From NCBI GenBank assembly GCA_049700355.1, contig JBNAVG010000003.1, positions 1 to 28,611 on the forward strand: a stretch of 28,611 nucleotides of DNA. The letters are read 5' to 3'. The translations under genes and the position numbers were made by a program. Numbering within the stretch: the first letter of the stretch is position 1; every line of letters starts with the position of its first letter. The DNA comes from Candidatus Micrarchaeales archaeon (GTDB taxonomy: Archaea; Micrarchaeota; Micrarchaeia; Micrarchaeales; JBNAVG01). The notes under the pieces are model-generated. The model did not search any database. It was not told where the DNA came from and was given only the letters and a program-made list of their open reading frames with translations. Of the stretch, positions 4,514 to 17,888 are shown in pieces.

Positions 4514-5755
4514 ATGAGACTAAGGTTTTTAGGAGGAGCTAGAGAAGTTGGTAGGAGTAGCATAGTGATAGAGGATAGAAAAAAGATAATGCTAGATTGT
4601 GGTATAAAGCTAGATTCAAAAACAGAATATCCTGAGCAATTAGCAGCAGACCTTATTATAGTTTCCCATGCTCACCTAGACCATAGCGGATATTCCCCAT
4701 TTTACTATAAGTTTTCTTCAATTCCAAGCATAGGTACTTATCCAACGCTTAACCTTACTCAACTTCTTCTTAAGGATTTTTTAAAAGTACAAAGGAGAAA
4801 ACATGAAAAAGTTCCTTTTAAAGATAGGGAAATAAGAAAATTCGTTAGAAATTTTATAGTTGCAAACTATGAAGAAGAATTTGCTTTTGGTGATTTTTCA
4901 ATAAAGTTTCATGATGCTGGGCATATTCCAGGAAGCTGTATGGTAGAGCTAAACAAAGATGGAAAAAAGATTTTTTATACTGCTGATTTTAAGCTTACAC
5001 CAACTTATCTCCACAAGGGAGCAAATTTTTATGAAAGTGATATTCTGATAATAGAATCAACCTATGCAAATAGAGAGCATCCCCCAAAGAAAGAAGTGGA
5101 GAAAAGATTAAAAGAAGAAATAGAAGAAACGATTTCAAAAGGTGGGAATGTTTTAATGCCAACGTTTGCTGTTGGAAGAGCCCAGGAAATGCTCTTTGTT
5201 TTAGATTCTCTTGGCTTTTCTGATATCGTTTATTTGGATGGTATGGCAAAGGATGCGACTCAAATAATTCTTAATTCAAAAAAATTTATCTCAGACCCAG
5301 AATGGCTCCAAAGGATATTGCAAAGAGTAAATTTTGTAGAAGAAAGAAGGGATAGGAGGGAAGCATTAAAAAAACCGAGCATTATTTTAACTACCGCCGG
5401 AATGCTAAACGGAGGTCCTGCACTCGATTATATTACAAAGCTTAACCTAAATAGCAAAATAATCTTTACTGGTTACCAAGTTGAAGGAACAAATGGAAGG
5501 GAGCTTCTTGAAAAAGGTGTAATAAATTTAAATGGAAAGAAGTTTAAAGTTCCCCAAAAGGCAATTTATCTTGATTTTTCTGCACATGCTGGAAGGAGTG
5601 AATTGTTTAAATTTGTAGAAAAAAGTAAAGCGGAGAAAATATTCGTTGTTCATGGTGATTCAAAAATAGCTATAGATTTTAAGGATGAACTTCTCATGCT
5701 TGGCTACGATGCAGTTGCTCCACAAAATAAAGAGAGCTTTGAGATTTCTTTTTAA
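4514..5755 (+). CDS. MBL-fold beta-CASP ribonuclease without KH domains (aCPSF2-like)
   Basis: 413 aa. LGGAREVGRS, LDCG, HAHLDH, AGHIPGS, ESTY, PTFAVGRAQE, GML.GGP, TGYQVEGT.GR, FSAHA, VHG. Confidence 0.88.
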   Translation: MRLRFLGGAREVGRSSIVIEDRKKIMLDCGIKLDSKTEYPEQLAADLIIVSHAHLDHSGYSPFYYKFSSIPSIGTYPTLNLTQLLLKDFLKVQRRKHEKVPFKDREIRKFVRNFIVANYEEEFAFGDFSIKFHDAGHIPGSCMVELNKDGKKIFYTADFKLTPTYLHKGANFYESDILIIESTYANREHPPKKEVEKRLKEEIEETISKGGNVLMPTFAVGRAQEMLFVLDSLGFSDIVYLDGMAKDATQIILNSKKFISDPEWLQRILQRVNFVEERRDRREALKKPSIILTTAGMLNGGPALDYITKLNLNSKIIFTGYQVEGTNGRELLEKGVINLNGKKFKVPQKAIYLDFSAHAGRSELFKFVEKSKAEKIFVVHGDSKIAIDFKDELLMLGYDAVAPQNKESFEISF

Positions 5756-5776
5756 TTTTAAATACTAAAAATAATT

Positions 5777-6778
5777 GTGAAAATATTAAACATAGATAAA
5801 AAGAATAATTTTGTAAAGCTTCTTTTAAATTCAAAGGAAGACCTTTTTCATTTAGAATACTTTATAGAAGAAGGAGACCTTTTAACCTCAAAAACTTTTA
5901 GAAAAGCTTTTTTTGAAAGTGGTAGTGAAAGAAAAGAAGTTCTTGTTGAAATTCTTGTTTTAAAACTATTCTTTAGGGAGGAAACAAATACCCTTAGAAT
6001 TTTTGGAAAGATTGTTAATGGTTACCCACAAGAATACGTTCAAATAGGAAAGCACCATAGTTTGGAGCTTGGAGTCGGTGATGTTGTTGAAGTAAGAAAA
6101 AGCAAACTTTATAATTTCCAAATCTTTTTACTTAAAGAGTGGGAAAAAGAAACAAAAAAACCCATTTTTTTGTTCTTAGCGATTGATGAAGAAAAAGCAA
6201 CGATTGCAAACGTTTTTCCTTATGGAATCGGTAATGTAAAAGAGATAAGAAGTGGATTAAGCAAAAGGCTTGATGAAAAAGAGTTTAAGAAAAAAGAAGA
6301 AGAATACTTAAACAAAGTTTCAAAAATAGTAAATAATTCAAAGGCAAAGATTGCTATAGTTTGTGGACCTGGTTTTGAAAAAGAAAAGATAATACCTTTG
6401 TTAAAAATCGAAGTTTTTTCTTTTTATTCTACTTCATCAGAGCTCTCAGCTATATATGAGGTTATGAAAAGCAAAGATTTTTTAGAACTTTCAAAAAAGC
6501 TTATGCTTAAGCAAGAAGAGTATTATGTTGAAAAGCTTATAGAAGAAATCTCAAAAAGTGGTAATTATGCCATTGGCTTGGAAGATGTTTCAAAATACGC
6601 TTACTCAAAAAGAATAAAAGTTTTACTCGTCACAAACTCAATGCTCAAGAAAAAAGAAGTAAAAGAGATAATAGAAATATTCAAAAATTTTGGAGGGACT
6701 CTTAGAATAATAAATGAAAAAACGAGCGCTGGAAAACAACTTTTAAGCTTAGGTGGTATAGGAGCTTTACTTACTTGA
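5777..6778 (+). CDS. pelA: mRNA surveillance / ribosome rescue protein Pelota (aDom34)
   Basis: 333 aa, GTG start. EDLFHLEYFIEEGD, LRIFGKI, GKHHSLEL, IVCGPGFEK, eRF1-like C-domain ending LGGIGALL. Confidence 0.88.
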   Translation: MKILNIDKKNNFVKLLLNSKEDLFHLEYFIEEGDLLTSKTFRKAFFESGSERKEVLVEILVLKLFFREETNTLRIFGKIVNGYPQEYVQIGKHHSLELGVGDVVEVRKSKLYNFQIFLLKEWEKETKKPIFLFLAIDEEKATIANVFPYGIGNVKEIRSGLSKRLDEKEFKKKEEEYLNKVSKIVNNSKAKIAIVCGPGFEKEKIIPLLKIEVFSFYSTSSELSAIYEVMKSKDFLELSKKLMLKQEEYYVEKLIEEISKSGNYAIGLEDVSKYAYSKRIKVLLVTNSMLKKKEVKEIIEIFKNFGGTLRIINEKTSAGKQLLSLGGIGALLT

Positions 6779-9700
6779 TTTTTTCTATTTTTTCCTTTGG
6801 AAGGATTAGCTTTACCATTCCAGTACCAACAGGTACTTCTTGGCCTATTATTATGTTTTCTGTTACCCCGGTTAATCTATCAACCTCACCAGTTGCAGCA
6901 GCATTCATTAAATGCTTAACTGTTTCCTCAAAAGCTGCCCTTGCAAGAACACTCGGTTTTTCAGCAACTAAGCCTTGTCTTCCTATTGGCTTTATTACCC
7001 CTTCCCTGGTCATCGTATCGGCGAGAAGCATTATATGCCTTATATCTACGTTTAGCTTGTTGGATTTTAGTATAGAATAAAGCTCCCTTACTATCGCATT
7101 CCTAGCAGCTTCTATTCCAAGTACTTCTGCTATTTCATGGATATGTGTTGTAAATATTTTACTTTTATCAACTCCTTCAACCTTCATCACTTCTCTTAGA
7201 TTGCTCCCACTAGCTCTTATGAAGTATTCTTCACCTTCCTGAAGCACTATTGCCCTTTCTATTCCTTTTATTCCCTTAACTATTAGCTCCTTTATTCTTA
7301 CTGCACTCCTTCTTAGCTTTGCATAAGAATTTGTTTTTATTTTTATTTTAACTCTATTTCCTTTTATGTTCATCCTACCAATCTTTTCACTTTTAATCTT
7401 TTCTATTGCTTCAGAAATTTTTACTCCTTTGCTCTTTAGTTTATTCTTGCTAAATGTTATCGTTATGCTCATATCATCAAAATCTTCCTCAACCTTGGCT
7501 ACTTCAGAAATTTTTACTTCTTCTATTTTTGAAGCGATTTGTTTGACCTTTTCTAGGTTGTTCTTAAACTTTTTATCTATATAAATGTCCATCATAGGTA
7601 TGGAAGGAACACTCTTTGCATCTATTATTTCTATAACCCTTGGAAGACCGGTTGGTACTTGCTCAGCAACTCCTGCAAAGTGGAAAAGCCTTAAGGTCAT
7701 TTGTGTTGCTGGTTCACCAAGGCTTTGTGCAGCAACTATACCAACAGCTTCACCGGGTTCGACAAGGAATTCTTCCCTTTTCTTTATGTTGTATTCTTCA
7801 AAATGTGAAAACATAGGATGCAAAGCATCTCCACCATATACAAATTGAACGATATCGTTTTTTGAATCCTTAACGCTTAAATCTTCATCAACATAAAGGT
7901 CTTGTAAAGCATGTATTAGTCTTCTTTGCATGTAACCAGATTTTGCTGGTCCAAGACCTTTTTGTACTATACTTTCCCTACCACCTACCGAGTGGAAGAA
8001 GAACTCTATCGGGTTTAAACCAAACCTAAAGTTTCCACCTATAAAGCCCCTTGCTTCAGCGCTTAAGTCATTCTTTTTCAAATGTGGTAATACTCTTGCT
8101 CTATAACCACGGTTTATCCTCTGTCCTCTTACTGCTTGCTGACCGAGCATCGCTGAGATTTGTATAAAGTTAAGCATTTTTCCCCTTGCACCACTTTGTG
8201 TCATTAGAAGAGCTGGGTTTTTTTCATCGATATATTTTTTAATTATCTCTTCGCACCCATCCCTAACTTCACCGAGCTCTTTAACAATATAAGCTTCTAA
8301 GCTTTCTTTACTCGTTCTACCAGGTAATGGAACTAACCTTTCTTCCTTATACTCTTTTATTAGCTCGTTTACTCTTTCTTTTCCTTTTTCCCTTCTTTCA
8401 TTTATTTTCTCCATCGCTTCTTTTGGAAGAGTATATTCCTCTAAGCTAACTGTTAATCCATACCTAGAAATAACAAAGTTTCCAACTCTTGTAATGTTAT
8501 CTATAAATTCTCTTGCTTCTTCAAAACCAACTTGAAGAGCAATAGCACCTATTATTTTTCTTAAAACATCCTTATCAACTACTCCTTCTTTAAGCTTTCC
8601 ATTTTCTATAACAACTTTACCTTTTTTCGTCTTTATTTCTAAGCTAATTTTTGGTAGAATGTTTGAGAATATTTCCTTTCCACTATATCTTTTTTCCTTC
8701 CTTTCTATTTCCTTCCCAGCTTGAGCTAATATATCGCATGCTTCTTCTTTTGAAAAATAAGAGGAATCTTGTGTTAAAATATAAATACCAGTGCATGTAT
8801 CTTCTATTGGTCCAATTATAATTTCTCCATGCCTTGGTGAAAAAAGTTGAAACTTTGTATCCATTAGATACTTTGCCTCAGCTATAGCATCTTCGCTTTG
8901 TGGAACATGAAGGTTCATTTCATCCCCATCAAAATCTGCATTATAAGGTTCTGTTGCTGCAATGTTTATTCTAAAGGTTTTTCCAGGAAGTATTCTAACA
9001 TAATGGGCCATCATGCTTATTCTATGCAAGCTCGGTTGTCTATTGAATAGAACTATATCACCATCTTTTATTTGTCTTTCAACTACATAACCAACGTTTA
9101 TTTCATTCTTTATCTCCTCTTTGTTCTTTTCAGTAATCTTTCTTTTTGTCCCATCTGGAGAAATTACATACAAAGCCCTTGGATATTCTTCTCTTTCTAT
9201 AAGCTCCTTGCAATAATCTATATTTTGAGAATTTACCTTTACTGGATAAGTAAGCTCCATTGCAATTTCTTTTGGTACCCCAACTTCATTTATGCTTATC
9301 CATGGGTCAACAGAAATAACACTCCTTGCACTAAAGTTTACCCTTTTTCCACTCAAATTATAACGAAACCTTCCTTCTTTTCCTTTTAGCCTTTGTGCTA
9401 AAGTTTTAAGAGGTCTTCCACTCCTATGCCTTGCTGGTGGAAGTCCTGAGGTTTCATTGTCAAAATAGGTTGTTATATGGTATTGTAAAAGTTCCCAAAG
9501 GTCATCTATTATCAATTGTGGAGCACCAGCGTTTATGTTTTGTTCAAGCCTTTGGTTTATCCTCATTATATCTACAAGCTTATGAGTTAAATCATCTTCG
9601 CTTCTTTCACCAGTTTCAAGAGTAATGCTTGGTCTTATGTTTACTGGTGGTACGAGCAGAGAATGTAGTATCATGTATTCGGGCCTTGCAACCTCTGGGT

Positions 9701-10313
9701 CAAGTCCAAGAAGCTTACAATCTTCATCGCTTATTCCCCTTAACCATTCTTCTATTTCAGGAACTTTCATCCTGATATTCTCAAGCTTTCCATCTTCTTT
9801 TTTTTCAACTCTATAGAAGAAAGTTGGTTTTTCAAACTTTATAAGTGGATGTACTTCACCACAATAAGGACATTTTTTAACCTGTTTAAGCTTGTTTATC
9901 AAAGATTTGCTTAACTTTTTCTTCTTTCCAGTTTCTTCCTCAACTTCTTCAACTTCAGCTTCTATAACTTCTTTTAATTGTTGTATTTCTTCTTTGTTTA
10001 AAAGAAGCTTATGACATTTTGGACATGTTGCTTGTAGCAATAAGTATATTACTTTTGCAAAGCCTGGGTGAATAACTGGCCTTGCTAAGTCTATATGCCC
10101 AAAATGTCCTGGGCATGCTCTCATCCTTGCTCCGCATGTTTTGCAGCGCAAGCTTGGGTCTATAACTCCAAGCCTTTGGTCTAGAAGACCACCATCTATT
10201 GGAAAACCTTCTTCATCATAAGTATCTGGAATCGTTATCTTTGCGACACTAAGCTTATGTACCATTTCATTTGAAAAAATACCAAACTTAATTGATTTTA
10301 TTATTTCTCTCAT
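6771..10313 (-). CDS. rpoA1: DNA-directed RNA polymerase largest subunit Rpo1, fused A'+A'' (Rpo1N+Rpo1C)
   Basis: 1180 aa in one frame. Zn site CKTC...CPGHFGH, NLSGKRVNFSAR, NRQPSLH, catalytic NADFDGDEMN (8913-8942), SGYMQRRL, then A'' motifs PGEAVGIVAAQSLGEPATQMTL and RAAFEET...NIIIGQ. Confidence 0.97.
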   Translation of the reverse strand: MREIIKSIKFGIFSNEMVHKLSVAKITIPDTYDEEGFPIDGGLLDQRLGVIDPSLRCKTCGARMRACPGHFGHIDLARPVIHPGFAKVIYLLLQATCPKCHKLLLNKEEIQQLKEVIEAEVEEVEEETGKKKKLSKSLINKLKQVKKCPYCGEVHPLIKFEKPTFFYRVEKKEDGKLENIRMKVPEIEEWLRGISDEDCKLLGLDPEVARPEYMILHSLLVPPVNIRPSITLETGERSEDDLTHKLVDIMRINQRLEQNINAGAPQLIIDDLWELLQYHITTYFDNETSGLPPARHRSGRPLKTLAQRLKGKEGRFRYNLSGKRVNFSARSVISVDPWISINEVGVPKEIAMELTYPVKVNSQNIDYCKELIEREEYPRALYVISPDGTKRKITEKNKEEIKNEINVGYVVERQIKDGDIVLFNRQPSLHRISMMAHYVRILPGKTFRINIAATEPYNADFDGDEMNLHVPQSEDAIAEAKYLMDTKFQLFSPRHGEIIIGPIEDTCTGIYILTQDSSYFSKEEACDILAQAGKEIERKEKRYSGKEIFSNILPKISLEIKTKKGKVVIENGKLKEGVVDKDVLRKIIGAIALQVGFEEAREFIDNITRVGNFVISRYGLTVSLEEYTLPKEAMEKINERREKGKERVNELIKEYKEERLVPLPGRTSKESLEAYIVKELGEVRDGCEEIIKKYIDEKNPALLMTQSGARGKMLNFIQISAMLGQQAVRGQRINRGYRARVLPHLKKNDLSAEARGFIGGNFRFGLNPIEFFFHSVGGRESIVQKGLGPAKSGYMQRRLIHALQDLYVDEDLSVKDSKNDIVQFVYGGDALHPMFSHFEEYNIKKREEFLVEPGEAVGIVAAQSLGEPATQMTLRLFHFAGVAEQVPTGLPRVIEIIDAKSVPSIPMMDIYIDKKFKNNLEKVKQIASKIEEVKISEVAKVEEDFDDMSITITFSKNKLKSKGVKISEAIEKIKSEKIGRMNIKGNRVKIKIKTNSYAKLRRSAVRIKELIVKGIKGIERAIVLQEGEEYFIRASGSNLREVMKVEGVDKSKIFTTHIHEIAEVLGIEAARNAIVRELYSILKSNKLNVDIRHIMLLADTMTREGVIKPIGRQGLVAEKPSVLARAAFEETVKHLMNAAATGEVDRLTGVTENIIIGQEVPVGTGMVKLILPKEKIEKIK

Positions 10314-13300
10314 TCTCTTTCACCAATTTTAATTCTTGGGAAAATATGAAAGCTTCTTATCTCATCCAACAAAAGCTTAAAACCATAGGAAACATCAACC
10401 TCTCCAATGTTCGTACTTCCACAAATTGGACAAACTGCAGTATTCTTAAGCCTATCAAAATATGCAAGTGAGCCACAATCTCTGCAAACAAGTATTTTTG
10501 TTTTATCGCTTTCTTCTAGCAATCTATCCCTTAGCAATGCGCTCGCACCAAAACCTATTAAAGTATCTCTTTCCATTTCTCCAAACCTTAAGCCCCCTTC
10601 TCTTGCCCTTCCTTCTGTTGGTTGATGTGTTAGAAGCTGAACTGGTCCACGGCTTCTTACGTGCATTTTATTGCTAACCATGTGATAGAGCTTTTGATAG
10701 TAAATAACTCCAATGTAAATATCTGCTTCAAAAGCCTTTCCACTTATACCATCATACATTCTCTCCTTTCCATTCTTTTTAAAACCATAGCTTTCGAGTA
10801 TTTTTCCTATTTCCTCTTCATTTATTTCTTTAAATGTTGTTCCTTCGATTGGTTTTGCCTTTAAACAAGCAGCTTTTCCAACGATAGTTTCGAGCAAATG
10901 ACCAATAGTCATTCTAGTTGGAATTGCATGCGGGTTTATTATTAAATCTGGAACTATTCCGCTTGAAGTGAATGGCATATCCTCTTGTGGAACAAGTAGC
11001 GCAACAACCCCTTTTTGCCCATGCCTAGAAGCAAACTTATCGCCATTTTCTAAGCTTTTTATCATCCTTATTCTTACTTTTACAAGCTTGTTTGCTTCCC
11101 CACTTTCACTTATAACAACAGAATCTACTACTCCACTCTCCCTTGGTTTAAGTAGAGTTGAGTTATCCCTTCTTTTTTCTTCAGAAACCCCAAAAATACC
11201 TGCTTCTTCTAAGAACCTTGGTGGTGATGTTTTTCCTACTAAAACATCTTTCCCATTAACGTTTTGTTCAACTTCTATTATACCATCTTCACCGAGCTTT
11301 GAATACGCCTCTTCACCCTTATAATCCTCTACCTCAGGGTTTGGAATCTCTATTCTATCTTTTTGTCCACCTGGATACCTTCTTTCCTCTGTTTCGTAGG
11401 TTTTATAAAAAACGCTCCTTGCTAAGCCCCTTTGTGCAGCATTCTTGTTAACTACTACTGCATCACCCATATTATAACCATAGTATGGTGCAACAGCAAC
11501 AACAAAGTTTTGTCCAGAAGAATATTTTTCATACTTTGCTATTTCAAAACCTTGTGTATAAACCAATGGTTTTTGTGGATAATAAAGAATGTAGCTTCTT
11601 GAATCAAAACGTTGGTTAAAGTTTAATGCAAATACTCCTTGACCTTGTTTAACCATTTGGCTTGCCATCGTAATTCTTGGAGAGCTATTATAGTTTTGGA
11701 AAGGAAGTAAGCTTGCAGCAATACCAAAAATAGTAGAAGGATCTATTTCAAGATGTGTTGTTTCTTTTTTGATATCTTTTTCGGAAATAGCTATAAAAGC
11801 GTTTTCTTCTTCATCAGCATCCAAGTACTCAACTATTCCATTCCTAACTAAATAATCAAAATCTATTTCTTTCTTTTCCAATTTTTCTAAAAGCTCCTGA
11901 GTAAGCTTTGGCTTTCCATCTTCAACTATTATATATGGCCTTCTAACTCTCCCAGGGTCGCAGTTTACGCTTATCTCCCTTGTTTTTTTATTTATTGAAA
12001 TGTTTAAGTTTATTAAAGAAAAATCCCTTCTTCTTTCTTCCCTTACTCTTTTTACAAATTCTTCACCATTCTTTACAAAATTCAAAAACCTTCCATTTAA
12101 ATAAACTGCAAAGGCTTCTTCCTTTTTCTGGGCTTCAAAATCGTTCATAATCTTTTCTAGTATCTTTTCTATTCTTTCTTCGTTTTCTTCCCTAGAAATA
12201 TCTATCATTAAAGCAAAATTTTTTATTAGAGCATGCCTAGGTCCTTCTGGGCTTTCATTAGGACAAAGCTTCCCCCAATGAGAACCGTGTAAATCCCTTG
12301 CTTCAAAATGTGTATGCTTCTTTGAAAGTGGTGATTGAAGCCTTCTAAGGTTTGAAAGAGTTGCTGCAAAATTGTTTCTATCTAGTAATTGGCTAACTCC
12401 GGTTTGCCCAGCAATCCAATTACCAGTTGCCATTGCAAACCTTAACCTTTGAGTTAATACTTCTGGTCTAACGACTCCTTGCAATAAAAGTTTTTTTCCA
12501 CGTGCATGAGACCTCTCAACTTGATAAGCAATATCTTTAACCAAAAAACCAAAAGCGTACTTAAAAAGCTCCTCCATCAATGCTCCAGCAATCTTTACTC
12601 TTTTGTTTGAATAAACATCCTTATCATCAGCCTTTATTTTATTATAAGCTAGAAGAATAGCCCTTTCAGCCATTTTTATTAAATAATAAGCTTTGTTTAT
12701 TCTGCTTTCTTTTGTTAAGCCTATATGTGGTAAAAGGTATTGGTCTAGGAGCATATCCACTCTTTTCCTTTGATAAACCAATGGTTGATTTGGAGCAACT
12801 TTTTTAGCAAGTTCATCAAAAGCTTCGCTTGCTTGTGTCTTTTCTAGCTCAAGGTTAAGCAGGAAGTCGTTTCTTACTATTTTTTCTTGTATTCTAGCCG
12901 TTATTTCGCTTGGTTTTAAGCCTAGAGCTTTTAGCAAAAGCATAAGCCTAAGCTCCTTCGGAGCTCCTGGGAAAGCAGCGAATAGCTCACCAGAATGATT
13001 CCTTCTAACAATACACTTTGCTCTAAAACCTTTAATCGTTGAAAAAACTTTACTCATCGTTTCTTTTCCTTTCTTTTCTTTTGAGGTTACTATTTTATTT
13101 GGTGCCAAATCTTCAATCCCAACTAATGCTTTTTCTGTACCGTTTATTATGAAATACCCACCAGGATCATTGGGGTCTTCACCATGTTCTATTAATTGTT
13201 TTCTCGTTAACCCATAAAGTCTACAAAGCTTGCTCTTTACCATAACTGGCAACCAACCGATAAGAACTTCTTTTGGTGTTCTTTTTACATCATCTATTAC

Positions 13301-13579
13301 TGGAATTATTTCCAAGTATATTGGAGATGCATAGGTTATGTTTCTAAGCCTGCAATCTCTTGGATAAAGCTCAGTGATTGAGCCATCTGCTTCAGTTATT
13401 ATAGGCTTTTCAAACCTTATTTTCCCTAAAAGAAATTTATAACCTTCAACATTCGGTTCTATTACTTTCTGGGAATCTATTACTCTTTGAGCCCCATACT
13501 CTATAAAATCATTGTAACTATTTAGCTGATGAGCAATTATAGAATGTTGTTCAAAAAAACTTAAAACTAAACTATTCAT
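10310..13579 (-). CDS. rpoB: DNA-directed RNA polymerase subunit Rpo2 (B, unsplit)
   Basis: 1089 aa. DPGGYFIINGTEK, FEARDLH, GDKFASRHGQKG, NPHAIPTRMT, KLYHMV, GGLRFGEMERD, C-terminal CRDC...CPIC. ATGA overlap with rpoA, with GGTGA 6 nt before the rpoA ATG. Confidence 0.97.
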   Translation of the reverse strand: MNSLVLSFFEQHSIIAHQLNSYNDFIEYGAQRVIDSQKVIEPNVEGYKFLLGKIRFEKPIITEADGSITELYPRDCRLRNITYASPIYLEIIPVIDDVKRTPKEVLIGWLPVMVKSKLCRLYGLTRKQLIEHGEDPNDPGGYFIINGTEKALVGIEDLAPNKIVTSKEKKGKETMSKVFSTIKGFRAKCIVRRNHSGELFAAFPGAPKELRLMLLLKALGLKPSEITARIQEKIVRNDFLLNLELEKTQASEAFDELAKKVAPNQPLVYQRKRVDMLLDQYLLPHIGLTKESRINKAYYLIKMAERAILLAYNKIKADDKDVYSNKRVKIAGALMEELFKYAFGFLVKDIAYQVERSHARGKKLLLQGVVRPEVLTQRLRFAMATGNWIAGQTGVSQLLDRNNFAATLSNLRRLQSPLSKKHTHFEARDLHGSHWGKLCPNESPEGPRHALIKNFALMIDISREENEERIEKILEKIMNDFEAQKKEEAFAVYLNGRFLNFVKNGEEFVKRVREERRRDFSLINLNISINKKTREISVNCDPGRVRRPYIIVEDGKPKLTQELLEKLEKKEIDFDYLVRNGIVEYLDADEEENAFIAISEKDIKKETTHLEIDPSTIFGIAASLLPFQNYNSSPRITMASQMVKQGQGVFALNFNQRFDSRSYILYYPQKPLVYTQGFEIAKYEKYSSGQNFVVAVAPYYGYNMGDAVVVNKNAAQRGLARSVFYKTYETEERRYPGGQKDRIEIPNPEVEDYKGEEAYSKLGEDGIIEVEQNVNGKDVLVGKTSPPRFLEEAGIFGVSEEKRRDNSTLLKPRESGVVDSVVISESGEANKLVKVRIRMIKSLENGDKFASRHGQKGVVALLVPQEDMPFTSSGIVPDLIINPHAIPTRMTIGHLLETIVGKAACLKAKPIEGTTFKEINEEEIGKILESYGFKKNGKERMYDGISGKAFEADIYIGVIYYQKLYHMVSNKMHVRSRGPVQLLTHQPTEGRAREGGLRFGEMERDTLIGFGASALLRDRLLEESDKTKILVCRDCGSLAYFDRLKNTAVCPICGSTNIGEVDVSYGFKLLLDEIRSFHIFPRIKIGERE

Positions 13580-13583
13580 TATT

Positions 13584-13832
13584 TCACTTCGCTACAACTA
13601 CTCTATAATAAAAATATTTAATTCCGTTTTCTTCTTCTCTTTCAATTTCTATAACATCACCAATCTTAACATTATATCCTTTGAGCATGGCGTCTGTTTT
13701 TAGTATTTTTGGGAGTTGTTTTTTTGTAATTTTGTATTTTTTTAATAATTTGTCTACTTCTTCACTCTTCAAAATTCTAAATTTTGGTACAAGCAAATGG
13801 TCAATACCAAAAACTATTCCTAGAATTAGCAT
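13584..13832 (-). CDS. rpoH: DNA-directed RNA polymerase subunit Rpo5 (H)
   Basis: 82 aa. HLLVPKFRIL, LPKILKTD, GDVIEIER, YYRVV. Sits directly upstream of rpoB, as in the conserved H-B-A operon. Confidence 0.92.
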   Translation of the reverse strand: MLILGIVFGIDHLLVPKFRILKSEEVDKLLKKYKITKKQLPKILKTDAMLKGYNVKIGDVIEIEREEENGIKYFYYRVVVAK

Positions 13833-13857
13833 TCAATCATATTTTATAAATTTTGAG

Positions 13858-13872
13858 TATTTAAATTTTTCG
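13858..13872 (-). promoter_or_regulatory. BRE-TATA promoter of the rpoH-rpoB-rpoA operon
   Basis: Minus strand reads CGAAAAA-TTTAAATA, close to the archaeal consensus, ending 25 nt before the rpoH ATG. Confidence 0.65.
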
Positions 13873-14030
13873 CTCAAAAGTATGATTAACACAACGAGTT
13901 GAAATCTTACAATCTTTACAGCAGGATAAAAGCAAACTGTCGTCATAGGAAGAAGGAAAGAGAGGAAGAAAAGAAGAAGAAAGAGGAAGGTAAAAAAAAT
14001 TATTAAATATTCTAAAAGAGAGAGAAAAAT

Positions 14031-15326
14031 ATGTTTAAAAAATATCTTTTATTGTTGTTTTTTGGTTTATTAATCGCTTTTGAATTTCCAATGCAAGGAT
14101 TTAAAATTGGAAACCTAAGCCTTCAAATCAGCAGGAATAATTCTGTTTTGGTAACTTTTCCGAATGGTTCTAAAAAGGAAATTCCACAAAATCTTACAAT
14201 AGCAATTATAAGAAATTTTACAAAGAATTCAAATATTTCTACTATAACTCACTTAATCTTTCTTAATATTACAAATCAAAATATTCAAATAAACAAAGAA
14301 ATGGAAAAAATAAAAGAGATTTATAAACATTATGGAGGTAACGAGGCTAAGATAGAAGAGGAGTATATAAAAGAGTTATCCAACATCTCTTTACCAACAA
14401 ATGTTTCAATTGAAAAATTAGAAGAAGAGTTTAAGGAAAAACAAAAGGAAGTTTGGGGGAGGGTAGAGAGAAAGTTTATAAATCACTCATCTAATGAATA
14501 TTGGAAAAAACACAGGATATGCGTAGCGATTTATCCAAATTTAAAAGAATGCCCTCCAGAAGTGTTTCCTATCTTCATTAATCAAACTAAAAAATTAATG
14601 CTTCCAAATGGTTCTATAATTTCAGTGAACGAAACGATTTTTGTAAGAGGTTTAGGAAAAATAATTCCAAAAGAGGATGAGGTTGAGATAGAAAATGAGT
14701 CTACGCATTCATTTATAAAAGAAGTACACAATCGTCCAGTAGTAGTTACGATTACTAAAACACCTACAGGAGTAAATGTTATTGTAACAAACTTAATAAG
14801 CGGAGTAAGAAATGAAATTGAAGTTGAAAAAGAGGAGAATGTTTTTAAGCACATTGTTGTACATACAAAAGGAAACGTTTCAAACGTTATAGTAAACATA
14901 ACAAGGATTAAAAACATCACATTTCCACCAAAAGTACCAAAAGAGTTTTCAAAAGCTTTGTTTTATGAGATTAATAGTAATTTAAGCGATAGCGATATAA
15001 AGAACGTTACATTTACTGTTGTTGTTAATCAGACATGGCTTAATAAAGTGAATAGTAGCATAGGAAAGATTGGGGTTATTAGAATAAATGGCAATACATC
15101 ACAAGTTTTACAGATTCTAAACGTTACAACTCAAAAAATCGGAAATGAAACATTCTACTATTTAAAAGTTGTTTCTCCAGGATTTTCTTTGTATGTAGTA
15201 ACTCCTCTTATCACTCCAACTTCAAGCATATTTAATATAAATTCATTGATTATAGCAGGGATCGTATTCTTAATTATAGCGATTGTTACAATTGTTTTAT
15301 TAAAAAGGAGAAAGAAGAGCAAATAA
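14031..15326 (+). CDS. Cell-surface glycoprotein with PGF-pre-PGF domain and C-terminal membrane anchor
   Basis: Signal peptide MFKKYLLLLFFGLLIA. C-terminal domain FYEINSN...VTFTVVVNQTWL...VVSPGFSLYVV, then a TM helix and KRRKKSK. About 23 N-X-S/T sequons by manual count. Confidence 0.72.
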   Translation: MFKKYLLLLFFGLLIAFEFPMQGFKIGNLSLQISRNNSVLVTFPNGSKKEIPQNLTIAIIRNFTKNSNISTITHLIFLNITNQNIQINKEMEKIKEIYKHYGGNEAKIEEEYIKELSNISLPTNVSIEKLEEEFKEKQKEVWGRVERKFINHSSNEYWKKHRICVAIYPNLKECPPEVFPIFINQTKKLMLPNGSIISVNETIFVRGLGKIIPKEDEVEIENESTHSFIKEVHNRPVVVTITKTPTGVNVIVTNLISGVRNEIEVEKEENVFKHIVVHTKGNVSNVIVNITRIKNITFPPKVPKEFSKALFYEINSNLSDSDIKNVTFTVVVNQTWLNKVNSSIGKIGVIRINGNTSQVLQILNVTTQKIGNETFYYLKVVSPGFSLYVVTPLITPTSSIFNINSLIIAGIVFLIIAIVTIVLLKRRKKSK

Positions 15327-15350
15327 AAATTCTTATATAATGGATAAAAC

Positions 15351-17255
15351 TTAGCAAAGTTGTAAAACATCAAGATTATTTGGAACAAATGTTTGTGTTT
15401 TTGTAACATTCCTTATTGCTTGAGCTAATTGTAAAGATTTTTCTTCTTCACCATGCATAACAAAAATTTTCTTTGGTCTTGGTTGAAGATTTTGTACAAA
15501 ATTCAAAAGCTGTACTCTATCGCTATGCCCAGAAAAACCTTCTATTGTTTCAATCTGCATTTTTATTTGATATTTTTTCAGTTTTCCTTCATCATCTAGT
15601 AAAGCAATTTCTCTTATACCACTCTGTAGCTTTCTTCCTAGAGAGGTTGGTGAGTTATAACCAACAAAAATCAATAAATTTTTTGGATTATCACACATAA
15701 GTTTTAGGTACTCTAAGCTTGTTCCACCATTTAACATTCCACCACTTGCTAATATTACACTCCCCCCAGATTCAACAATTTCTTTTTTATCCTTTTTCAC
15801 TATTTCGAATATCGGGTTTTCAAAAGGGGATTGATTGTTTAAAACTTTTCTTTGAATACCCTCTTTTAAGTACTCTGGATAAACAGTATGAATAGCACTT
15901 GCCTCTAGTATCATACCATCTAAGTATACTGGAGCATTAAAATAATACTCTTTATTCCTTAAGTATTCATCTATAACGAGCATTATTTCTTGACTTCTAC
16001 CTACCGAGAAAAGAGGTATTAAAACACTCCCCCCGTTTTCTATTGTTTGTTTTATCATTTTCATTAATCTACTTTCAGCTTCATACCTCTTTGGCATTAT
16101 ATCTTGCTTTCCACCATATGTGCTTTCTATAAATAAAGAGTCTACTCTTGGAAAATGTGTTTCAGCTACATCAAAAAGTCTTGAAAACCCATATTTAATA
16201 TCTCCCGTGTAAAGCAAATTATACAAACCTTCGCCTATATGTAAGTGCACCATAGCACTTCCTAAAATATGCCCTGCATTGTGAAAAGTAAGTCTAATCT
16301 CATTTGTTATATCAGTCACCTCTCCATAATCCCTTGTTATAAAGTTTGAAAGCATTTTTTTTACATCTTTTGAAGAATACGGTGGCTTATGACCGGATTT
16401 TTCAACTATGTTTATATAATCTAAAAGAAGTAATGCAGCAAGCTCCTTTGTTGGTGGCGTAGAATAAACAGGACCTTTATATCCATAGCTGAAAAGATAT
16501 GGAATAAACCCTATATGGTCCATATGTGCATGGCTTACCACTATAGCATCTATATCCTCTAGAGGAAAGCCTAAAGAATTTAGATAAGGAAAAGCTTTTT
16601 CAGCTTCTTCTACTCCAAGGACACCCGGCTCTGGAGAAATACCACAATCTATTAAAACTTTTGAATTTTTTGTTTGCACCAATAGACTACTCCTTCCTAC
16701 CTGTCTAAAACCACCCAATGCGATTGCTTTAACATTTTCACTTTTTTCTAAAACTTTTTTATTTATTTTCTTACCAACTTCGTTTAAAAATCTTTTTCTT
16801 TTTTTCTCCGTTTTAAAAAACAAGCTCCTTGTAAGAGTAATTGTTTCTGAGTTTATAGTTGGAACTCTAAGTGTTCTTGGAATCCATCCTGTTGCTTTTA
16901 TTATAACCCTTAAATTATTTCCTTTTTTTCCAATAACCAAGCCAGGCTTCAATGCTTCTATATAAACCTCTCTAAACTTCGGCAAAAAATTTATACTTTT
17001 AATACCAGCTTCTTTTGGTAATATCCTTAAGATTTCTTTTTTAGCTTCTTCTTCTTTTTTTAAGTTTGTGCTTCTTGCAATGATCTTCTTTTTTAATGTT
17101 GTAGCAAGTTGCTTTAATATTGCTTCGTTAGAGTAAATTAAGTTTGGGTCATCAACATAAATAACTATATCGCTTCCTTCAAATTCAACTTTTTTAAAAC
17201 TACCCACTATTCTTTCAACTATCTCTTCTACTTCCTCAATTTCCATAAAGTTCAC
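15351..17255 (-). CDS. fttA: aCPSF1 / FttA beta-CASP ribonuclease with two N-terminal KH domains (transcription termination factor)
   Basis: 634 aa. VEFEGSDIVIY, IEALKPGLVIGKKG, LGGFRQVGRS, HAHMDH, GHILGS, ESTYGG, SGGMLNGG, GFSGHSD, HGE. Directly follows psmB, a conserved pairing. The start may be the ATG at 17246 rather than the GTG at 17255. Confidence 0.95.
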   Translation of the reverse strand: MNFMEIEEVEEIVERIVGSFKKVEFEGSDIVIYVDDPNLIYSNEAILKQLATTLKKKIIARSTNLKKEEEAKKEILRILPKEAGIKSINFLPKFREVYIEALKPGLVIGKKGNNLRVIIKATGWIPRTLRVPTINSETITLTRSLFFKTEKKRKRFLNEVGKKINKKVLEKSENVKAIALGGFRQVGRSSLLVQTKNSKVLIDCGISPEPGVLGVEEAEKAFPYLNSLGFPLEDIDAIVVSHAHMDHIGFIPYLFSYGYKGPVYSTPPTKELAALLLLDYINIVEKSGHKPPYSSKDVKKMLSNFITRDYGEVTDITNEIRLTFHNAGHILGSAMVHLHIGEGLYNLLYTGDIKYGFSRLFDVAETHFPRVDSLFIESTYGGKQDIMPKRYEAESRLMKMIKQTIENGGSVLIPLFSVGRSQEIMLVIDEYLRNKEYYFNAPVYLDGMILEASAIHTVYPEYLKEGIQRKVLNNQSPFENPIFEIVKKDKKEIVESGGSVILASGGMLNGGTSLEYLKLMCDNPKNLLIFVGYNSPTSLGRKLQSGIREIALLDDEGKLKKYQIKMQIETIEGFSGHSDRVQLLNFVQNLQPRPKKIFVMHGEEEKSLQLAQAIRNVTKTQTFVPNNLDVLQLC

Positions 17256-17261
17256 AGTAAT

Positions 17262-17888
17262 TTATTCCTTTAAGAGTTTCTCTATTTCTTCCTTTGAATA
17301 TTCAAAATACCCTTCTTTAGTTATTTTTACGATATCTATTCCATCTCCAGTTGCAGCATCCCTTCTCATTGCTATATTTAGGGCTTTTATTCCTATTTTT
17401 AAGTTTTCATCAGTTGTTCTGTTTGCTTTATATGCTTCTTCTAAAATTCCTATAGCTGTTAGAGAACCAGAGCCTGTTGCAGTGAAGTTTTCTTTTGTAT
17501 AACCTCCAAGAGGATCTATATTGTAAAGTTCAGGCTCTCCCCTTTCGTTTATTCCACCAATTAACATTTGTACAAGGAATGGAAAATACTTGTTTGATTG
17601 TAAGATATTTGCTAGTAAAGTTGAAGCCACTTTTGGGCTCATTGATAAATTGGTATTAAACCTATAAATTTCGGAATGATACCTAAGTAAGCGTATTAGC
17701 TCTAATGCATCACCAACACCACCAGCTATTGTAACCCCTAAGTTATCACTAATCTTATAGATTTTTTTGACTTCTTTACTTGCTATGAAAGTATCCATAG
17801 TAGCTCTTTTATCAGCTCCAAGTATTACTCCATCTTGGCAAACAAGTCCTATTGTTGTAGTCCCCTTTTTTATTTTTTCCATATTCAT
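17262..17888 (-). CDS. psmB: Proteasome beta subunit
   Basis: Propeptide then G|TTTIG, ADKRAT, KKIYKI, TIAGGVGDA, TGSGS, A.RRDAATGDG. Confidence 0.96.
   Translation of the reverse strand: MNMEKIKKGTTTIGLVCQDGVILGADKRATMDTFIASKEVKKIYKISDNLGVTIAGGVGDALELIRLLRYHSEIYRFNTNLSMSPKVASTLLANILQSNKYFPFLVQMLIGGINERGEPELYNIDPLGGYTKENFTATGSGSLTAIGILEEAYKANRTTDENLKIGIKALNIAMRRDAATGDGIDIVKITKEGYFEYSKEEIEKLLKE

What the first reader, a model, noticed from the sequence alone, without database searches (positions are those of the whole stretch)
7921..7995. Proline at the conserved bridge-helix threonine of RNA polymerase
Seen: FFHSVGGRESIVQKGLGPAKSGYMQRRL, with the Pro codon at 7947-7949 (residue 789). Known: the consensus is FFHAMGGREGL.DTAV[KR]TA..GY.QRRL, and this Pro aligns to yeast Rpb1 T831 / E. 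coli beta' T790 beside the active site. Engineered bridge-helix prolines at certain hinge positions alter the activity of archaeal RNAP. Five positions are changed here (DTAVKT to QKGLGP), including two Gly and a Pro. Inference: a naturally kinked or flexible bridge helix, possibly with altered catalysis, fidelity, pausing or inhibitor sensitivity.
Basis: partly seen in the sequence, partly recalled or inferred. Interest (0 to 1): 0.62.

Follow-up and report, generated by a model that had tools for sequence, protein, structure and literature searches.

The report
Recurrent proline in polymerase bridge helix
This tiny archaeon has replaced a near-universal active-site threonine of RNA polymerase with proline; the same swap arose at least four separate times, all within a branch of archaea that seems to have lost the proofreading factor TFS, so it offers natural enzymes for testing what that threonine does.

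Summary
Confirmed and not an error. Pro789 of the single, intact, fused Rpo1 aligns without gaps to yeast Rpb1 T831. All six residues D826-T831 are changed (QKGLGP), not five. Relatives 84-85% identical keep the motif, with synonymous Pro codons. The organism is a Micrarchaeon. The same Pro is fixed across Norongarragalinales (noted earlier by this scan on other DNA) and in two lineages of a sister phylum. Trees with the motif masked reject a single origin, so there are at least four origins, always on a K827-G828 background. New context: canonical TFS was found in 0 of 251 Micrarchaeota, against 79 of 81 Nanoarchaeota, which keep T831. The metal-B glutamate of Rpo2 (yeast E836) is Gly here. 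Yeast T831A impairs TFIIS-stimulated cleavage, and engineered M. jannaschii T821P is weakened but active. Best reading: TFS loss relaxed the threonine's proofreading role, and a compensated Pro hinge was then fixed. This is inferred from one loss event, and most TFS-less relatives keep Thr. Natural bridge-helix prolines are published at three other positions; I found no report at this one.

The parts
6771..10313 (-). Rpo1 (A'+A'' fused), 1180 aa, single copy, intact
7917..8003 (-). Bridge helix, residues 771-799 = yeast Rpb1 813-841
7947..7964 (-). QKGLGP (784-789), replacing yeast D826-T831; includes K827 and G828, shared by all Pro lineages
7947..7949 (-). Pro789 codon CCA = yeast T831 / M. 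jannaschii T821
7638..7718 (-). Trigger loop (866-892); Q1078, L1081, H1085 equivalents and the P1099 hinge (P891) are kept
7686..7688 (-). Leu876 = yeast T1083; family-specific trigger-loop change, candidate compensator
8922..8942 (-). Catalytic NADFDGD motif (metal A), intact
7758..7826 (-). A'/A'' fusion junction; short, foot domain absent as in split relatives
10310..13579 (-). Rpo2 (unsplit B), 1089 aa
11465..11467 (-). Rpo2 Gly705 = yeast Rpb2 E836 (metal-B glutamate lost; D837 kept)

Best explanation
This is the working, sole RNA polymerase of a Micrarchaeon with a remodelled but compensated bridge helix. Shown: T831 is replaced by Pro, the change is fixed in this family, and it arose independently at least four times in Micrarchaeota plus their sister phylum, each time on a K827-G828 background with K/R830 usually changed too. 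Shown: canonical TFS is not found in that clade, and no Pro lineage examined keeps the metal-B Glu. Inferred: the common ancestor lost TFS, which relaxed selection on residues serving backtracking and factor-stimulated cleavage (T831, Rpb2 E836). Inferred: the K827-G828 background made Pro tolerable, and partner changes (here D826Q, K830G, trigger-loop T1083L; in Norongarragalinales loss of the P1099 hinge) then locked it in. Predicted behaviour: the hydroxyl that probes the 3' base pair is gone and the helix is locally more flexible, so the enzyme frays and backtracks less, proofreads less, and keeps nucleotide addition adequate.
For: Fixation with synonymous codon change across 84-85% identical Rpo1. 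Near-invariant DKGVNP motif in ten Norongarragalinales families. AU tests reject one clade for the Pro carriers: window family + Norongarragalinales p=1.8e-74, window family + sister-phylum pair p=2.5e-74, all together p=2.6e-26 with five state changes. TFS over the TIGR01384 cut-off: 0/251 Micrarchaeota against 79/81 Nanoarchaeota. A relaxed TFS profile finds 0/31 in the sister phylum and 0/30 in Pro-bearing Micrarchaeota. Nanoarchaeota keep T831 in all 75 genomes matched. T831 is also Ile in 8 of 29 same-order relatives. Rpo2 E836 is G here, N/Q/D in other Pro lineages. Yeast T831A lowers backtracking-dependent, above all TFIIS-stimulated, cleavage (PMC4838855). mj T821P keeps detectable activity (PMC2776397).
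Against: TFS loss is probably one event, so the link is a single phylogenetic coincidence, not a statistical correlation. Most TFS-less Micrarchaeota keep T831. Seventeen same-order genomes carry a divergent TFS-like protein with a DE tip, two of them with I831. K827-G828 also occurs in two Nanoarchaeota that keep TFS. The window genome is 83% complete. The enzyme has about 57 other changes at conserved columns, similar to other fast-evolving lineages. No biochemistry exists.
Confidence: 0.5

Rival explanations
1. Adaptive compensation, as in cyanobacteria: after TFS loss the Pro hinge was positively selected because it suppresses backtracked arrest or raises intrinsic RNA hydrolysis, so the enzyme no longer needs a rescue factor.
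For: The same radical residue arose at least four times and is then almost invariant. Cyanobacteria lack Gre/TFS, and their lineage-specific bridge-helix and trigger-loop residues raise intrinsic hydrolysis 3- to 11-fold in E. coli RNAP (PMC7026648).
Against: Thr to Pro needs one base change (ACN to CCN), so recurrence is mutationally easy. Most TFS-less lineages manage with Thr. Loss of E836 argues against better hydrolysis (beta E813/D814 help hold the second Mg, PMC5856549).
Confidence: 0.25
2. Drift in small-genome symbionts, unrelated to TFS: general erosion of conserved RNAP sites fixed a mildly harmful Pro, later entrenched by epistasis.
For: 28 Rpo1 and 29 Rpo2 substitutions at columns at least 90% conserved, comparable to other fast lineages. 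Same-order relatives have heavily eroded bridge helices without Pro.
Against: Nanoarchaeota have more such substitutions (39-60 per subunit) and similar genome sizes, yet keep T831 (75/75), E836 (four checked) and TFS (79/81).
Confidence: 0.17
3. The Pro compensates for re-fusion of A' and A'', which tethers the bridge helix to the trigger loop through a short linker.
For: Three of four Pro lineages have independently fused Rpo1 with different junctions, while their sisters are split.
Against: The fourth lineage (G410, G411) has Pro with split subunits, G072 is fused with Thr, and fused Altiarchaeota and Pacearchaeota keep Thr.
Confidence: 0.07
4. Sequencing or assembly error, or a dead paralogue.
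For: None found.
Against: Motif present in 16 related proteins from independent assemblies, with synonymous variation; single intact copy with normal operon and catalytic motifs.
Confidence: 0.01

Closest known systems
Nanoarchaeum equitans / Woesearchaeota / Pacearchaeota bridge-helix proline (neA' P810; Nottebaum and Weinzierl 2021, PMC8204694)
   Same: [quoted passage not shown]
   Different: That Pro is one residue later (mj A822 / yeast A832) and leaves the threonine in place (75/75); those lineages keep TFS. Here the threonine itself is replaced.
Engineered M. jannaschii A' T821P (Tan et al. 2008, PMC2776397)
   Same: Same substitution at the same position.
   Different: Single mutant in a canonical background, with reduced but detectable activity; only bulk activity is reported in the passages read. 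The natural enzyme adds five neighbouring changes and T1083L.
Hinge prolines mj M808P and S824P, and their natural counterparts in Orientia, Arcobacter, Bacillus isolates and plant Pol IV/V (Weinzierl 2010, PMC2988716)
   Same: Natural or engineered Pro tolerated in the bridge helix.
   Different: Different positions, facing away from the active site, and superactivating.
Yeast Rpb1 T831A (Da et al. 2016, PMC4838855)
   Same: Loss of the same hydroxyl.
   Different: Ala keeps the helix; laboratory mutant; TFIIS present.
Cyanobacterial RNAP without Gre factors (Riaz-Bradley et al. 2020, PMC7026648)
   Same: Clade without a cleavage factor and with clade-specific bridge-helix and trigger-loop residues.
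   Different: Bacterial enzyme; the changes described are at other positions (F773V, N792D, A940V, G1136Q) and residues near the catalytic Mg are conserved.
Norongarragalinales T831P
   Same: Same Pro, same K827-G828 background, fused Rpo1, same phylum.
   Different: Independent origin; that order keeps D826 and T1083 and loses the P1099 hinge, whereas this family has Q826 and L1083 and keeps P1099.

Membership tests
Archaeal Rpo1 (two-barrel multisubunit RNAP largest subunit) | Rpb1 domains 1-5 and A' equivalog score | tested here: met
   (NF006336 1161.7 bits, cut-off 819)
Archaeal Rpo1 (two-barrel multisubunit RNAP largest subunit) | NADFDGD metal-A motif; trigger-loop Q1078/L1081/H1085 | tested here: met
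Archaeal Rpo1 (two-barrel multisubunit RNAP largest subunit) | rpo5-rpo2-rpo1 operon, single copy, RNAP fold | tested here: met
Archaeal Rpo1 (two-barrel multisubunit RNAP largest subunit) | Canonical bridge-helix T831 | tested here: not met
   Pro789
Archaeal Rpo1 (two-barrel multisubunit RNAP largest subunit) | Catalytic activity and expression | not testable with these tools
   No assay; no RNA holder listed
Nanoarchaeal-type bridge-helix proline (A822/A832) | Pro at A832 with T831 retained | tested here: not met
   Residue 790 is Ala, 789 is Pro
Hinge prolines BH-HN / BH-HC | Pro at M808 (yeast M818) or S824 (yeast T834) | tested here: not met
   Val776 and Ser792
Norongarragalinales-type Rpo1 | Monophyly with Norongarragalinales Rpo1/Rpo2 | tested here: not met
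   AU p=1.8e-74; sister to same-order families at 100% SH-aLRT
Norongarragalinales-type Rpo1 | Loss of trigger-loop hinge P1099 | tested here: not met
   P891 kept
Kinked bridge-helix enzyme | Helix break at the Pro in the assembled enzyme | tested here: inconclusive
   AlphaFold coil at 783-788 but pLDDT under 50, Rpo1 folded alone
RNAP without a cleavage factor (cyanobacteria-like) | No TFS in the genome | tested here: inconclusive
   Not found in G000 (83% complete) nor in 29 other Pro-bearing genomes; strong as a clade pattern, not proof for this genome
RNAP without a cleavage factor (cyanobacteria-like) | High intrinsic hydrolysis | not testable with these tools
   Needs biochemistry

The most novel reading that the evidence does not exclude
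Micrarchaeota and their sister phylum are a large archaeal clade that transcribes without TFS, and several lineages convergently rebuilt the active site (Pro for the backtracking-sensor Thr, loss of the metal-B Glu) into a low-backtracking polymerase that avoids arrest instead of proofreading.
Probability: 0.3. Interest if true: 0.78.

Novelty: new variant of a known kind. Interest (0 to 1): 0.56.

Why it matters
Whether the bridge helix must bend, and what T831/T790 does in translocation and backtracking, is a long-running question studied almost only with laboratory mutants and simulation. At least four independently evolved enzymes carry Pro there, each with different partner changes, so they give ready-made epistasis experiments. 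The accompanying result, no canonical TFS in 251 Micrarchaeota genomes, conflicts with the review statement that TFS is conserved in all archaea except Methanopyrus kandleri (PMC7289017) and bears on how cells cope without a proofreading factor.

Tried and rejected
Read support: one hot-spring run holds a 97%-identical contig across 7561-8282, but the table of differences was cut, so it says nothing about the codon; no RNA holder listed. AlphaFold on residues 560-1180 and full length: bridge helix at pLDDT under 50, no structural claim made; Foldseek only confirmed the RNAP fold. AU test under the mixture model did not finish; the p-values are LG+G4, quick search, although the mixture-model tree has the same topology. 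First viral scan had a miscounted gap (discarded); the corrected scan gave five chance hits and no RNAP. Horizontal transfer from Norongarragalinales or from the sister phylum: rejected on concatenated Rpo1+Rpo2 trees; single-gene trees were not run. Obligate coupling with P1099 loss: rejected. Obligate coupling with A'/A'' fusion: rejected. DNA patterns needed H816 and RR, so they undercount (they missed G410 and G411). Literature searches for Micrarchaeota with bridge helix, TFS or TFIIS, and Norongarragalinales with RNA polymerase, found nothing relevant; the library is open-access only.

Full report
Observation. The stretch lies in a 1180-codon minus-strand ORF (6771-10313) that is a fused A'+A'' Rpo1, downstream of rpo5 and an unsplit rpo2. 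It is the only copy in the 625-kb, 83% complete assembly. The alignment to yeast Rpb1 has no gap across the helix, so Pro789 (CCA, 7947-7949) is T831. All six residues D826-T831 are changed to QKGLGP and G823 is Ser; H816, G819, G820, R821, G835, Y836, R839 and R840 are kept. The NADFDGD motif and trigger-loop Q1078, L1081 and H1085 are intact.

It is real. Sixteen related proteins from NCBI, JGI, ENA and Logan assemblies carry the same six residues; most are only 84-85% identical to the window's Rpo1, and the Pro codon varies between CCA and CCT. Gene order around the operon is conserved in these contigs.

Who has it. The phylum is Micrarchaeota: NCBI-named Micrarchaeota and Norongarragalinales records fall inside it. 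The window's family has one genome and is sister to two large families of its order; that the order is Micrarchaeales is my inference. A pattern for Pro at this position hit 49 of 401 genomes, all-or-none by family: the window's family and ten families of one clade named Norongarragalinales; 0 of 177 in the two sister families. There the motif DKGVNP is nearly invariant. A metagenome-wide scan gave 54 hits: 47 of that type, 5 of the window's type, one chance hit and one unresolved singleton in an otherwise canonical Bathyarchaeia-like gene. In a 31-genome sister phylum, G414 and an independent MAG have DKGVRP, and G410 and G411 have DKGIEP and DKGINP.

Convergence. On Rpo1+Rpo2 trees with the bridge helix, junction and trigger loop masked, the window's family joins the Thr-bearing families of its order at 100% SH-aLRT under LG+G4 and under a mixture model. 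AU tests (LG+G4) reject grouping it with Norongarragalinales (p=1.8e-74) or with the G414 pair (p=2.5e-74), reject G410 with the G414 pair (p=5e-41), and reject all Pro carriers together (p=2.6e-26; five changes). That means at least four origins; an ancestral Pro would need many more reversions. Every origin sits on K827-G828, which is present in 28 of 30 sister-phylum genomes read and so probably came first. Partner changes differ: this family has D826Q, K830G and trigger-loop T1083L and keeps the P1099 hinge, whereas Norongarragalinales keep D826 and T1083 and lose P1099.

Context. Yeast T831 probes the 3' base pair, and T831A lowers backtracking-dependent cleavage, most strongly with TFIIS (PMC4838855). 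I therefore looked for TFS. No genome of 251 Micrarchaeota reaches the TIGR01384 cut-off, against 79 of 81 Nanoarchaeota of similar size and single Woese-, Pace- and Aenigmarchaeota controls. A profile including the most divergent hits finds TFS-like proteins with a DE tip in 17 genomes, all in the two sister families; only four match full length, and those were in the profile. It finds none in 30 Pro-bearing Micrarchaeota or in the 31 sister-phylum genomes. The Rpo2 metal-B glutamate (yeast E836) is Gly705 here and is degenerate in most Micrarchaeota and in every Pro lineage read. Nanoarchaeota keep T831 in all 75 genomes matched, while same-order relatives also show T831I in 8 of 29.

Mechanism. 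Shown: fixation, recurrence, shared background, missing canonical TFS, lost E836. Inferred: loss of TFS relaxed the cleavage-related residues; K827-G828 made the Pro tolerable; later changes entrenched it; the enzyme should fray and backtrack less and proofread less. Viability is plausible because engineered T821P keeps detectable activity (PMC2776397), T821 lies in a region tolerant of two-residue deletions (PMC2988716), and N. equitans RNAP with a Pro one residue later is active (PMC8204694). Limits: TFS loss is likely a single event, most TFS-less relatives keep Thr, two genomes with a TFS-like domain have I831, and K827-G828 occurs with TFS in two Nanoarchaeota. An adaptive reading has a precedent in cyanobacteria (PMC7026648). 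AlphaFold breaks the helix at 783-788 at pLDDT under 50, which is not evidence. Three of four Pro lineages have re-fused Rpo1, but counter-examples exist both ways.

Comparison and verdict. Natural bridge-helix prolines are published at M808, A822 and S824 equivalents. I found no paper on a natural Pro at T821/T831 or on TFS loss in Micrarchaeota, and a review states that TFS is conserved in all archaea except M. kandleri. It is a new variant of a known kind, interest 0.56.

Noticed in passing
phylum-wide; G000 and 250 other Micrarchaeota, 31 sister-phylum genomes: Canonical TFS not found in any (0/251 over cut-off; 0/31), against 79/81 Nanoarchaeota. Worth a study of its own.
   Followed up: yes
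L255, L257, L258, L267 (about 1501-1827) and L282-L295: Patchy, divergent TFS-like zinc-ribbon proteins with a DE tip in 17 genomes of two Micrarchaeota families; most match only the C-terminal ribbon, some within longer ORFs.
   Followed up: partly
window 11465-11467: Rpo2 metal-B glutamate (yeast E836) is Gly; G, A, S, N, Q, K or D in most Micrarchaeota.
   Followed up: yes
window 7758-7826: A'/A'' re-fusion with a junction different from that of Norongarragalinales; further separate fusions in G414 (foot retained) and G072. Rpo2 is also unsplit in this family while most relatives are split.
   Followed up: partly
window about 12215-12256 (Rpo2 442-455) and about 11665-11690 (Rpo2 631-637): Fork-loop/beta-DII and link-region motifs also deviate from yeast (for example Q763 to Ser, N767 to Ile).
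   Followed up: no
L325-L328, L330, L334: Sister-phylum lineages with the trigger-loop GEP motif changed to GER and strongly eroded bridge helices.
   Followed up: no
L166:421-497: Singleton Bathyarchaeia-like Rpo1 with Pro at T831 (codon CCG) in an otherwise canonical helix; real or a one-base error, unresolved.
   Followed up: partly
L251 (G233:C96:785-3301): Second, very divergent RNAP large subunit (about 28% identity, NADFDGD intact) on a 3.7-kb contig of a Norongarragalinales bin; its helix also appears to carry a KG background. Possibly viral or misbinned.
   Followed up: partly
L207, L018, L336: One Micrarchaeota genus has Pro at A832 with T831 kept, convergent with Nanoarchaeota.
   Followed up: no
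window 4514-6778 and 13584-17888: The RNAP operon is not followed by L30e-nusA-S12-S7; it ends convergently on pelota and a beta-CASP gene, and lies near FttA and a proteasome subunit; order conserved in the family.
   Followed up: partly
L250, L164, L185: Intein-like insertion right after the trigger-loop TQM motif in several Norongarragalinales Rpo1.
   Followed up: no
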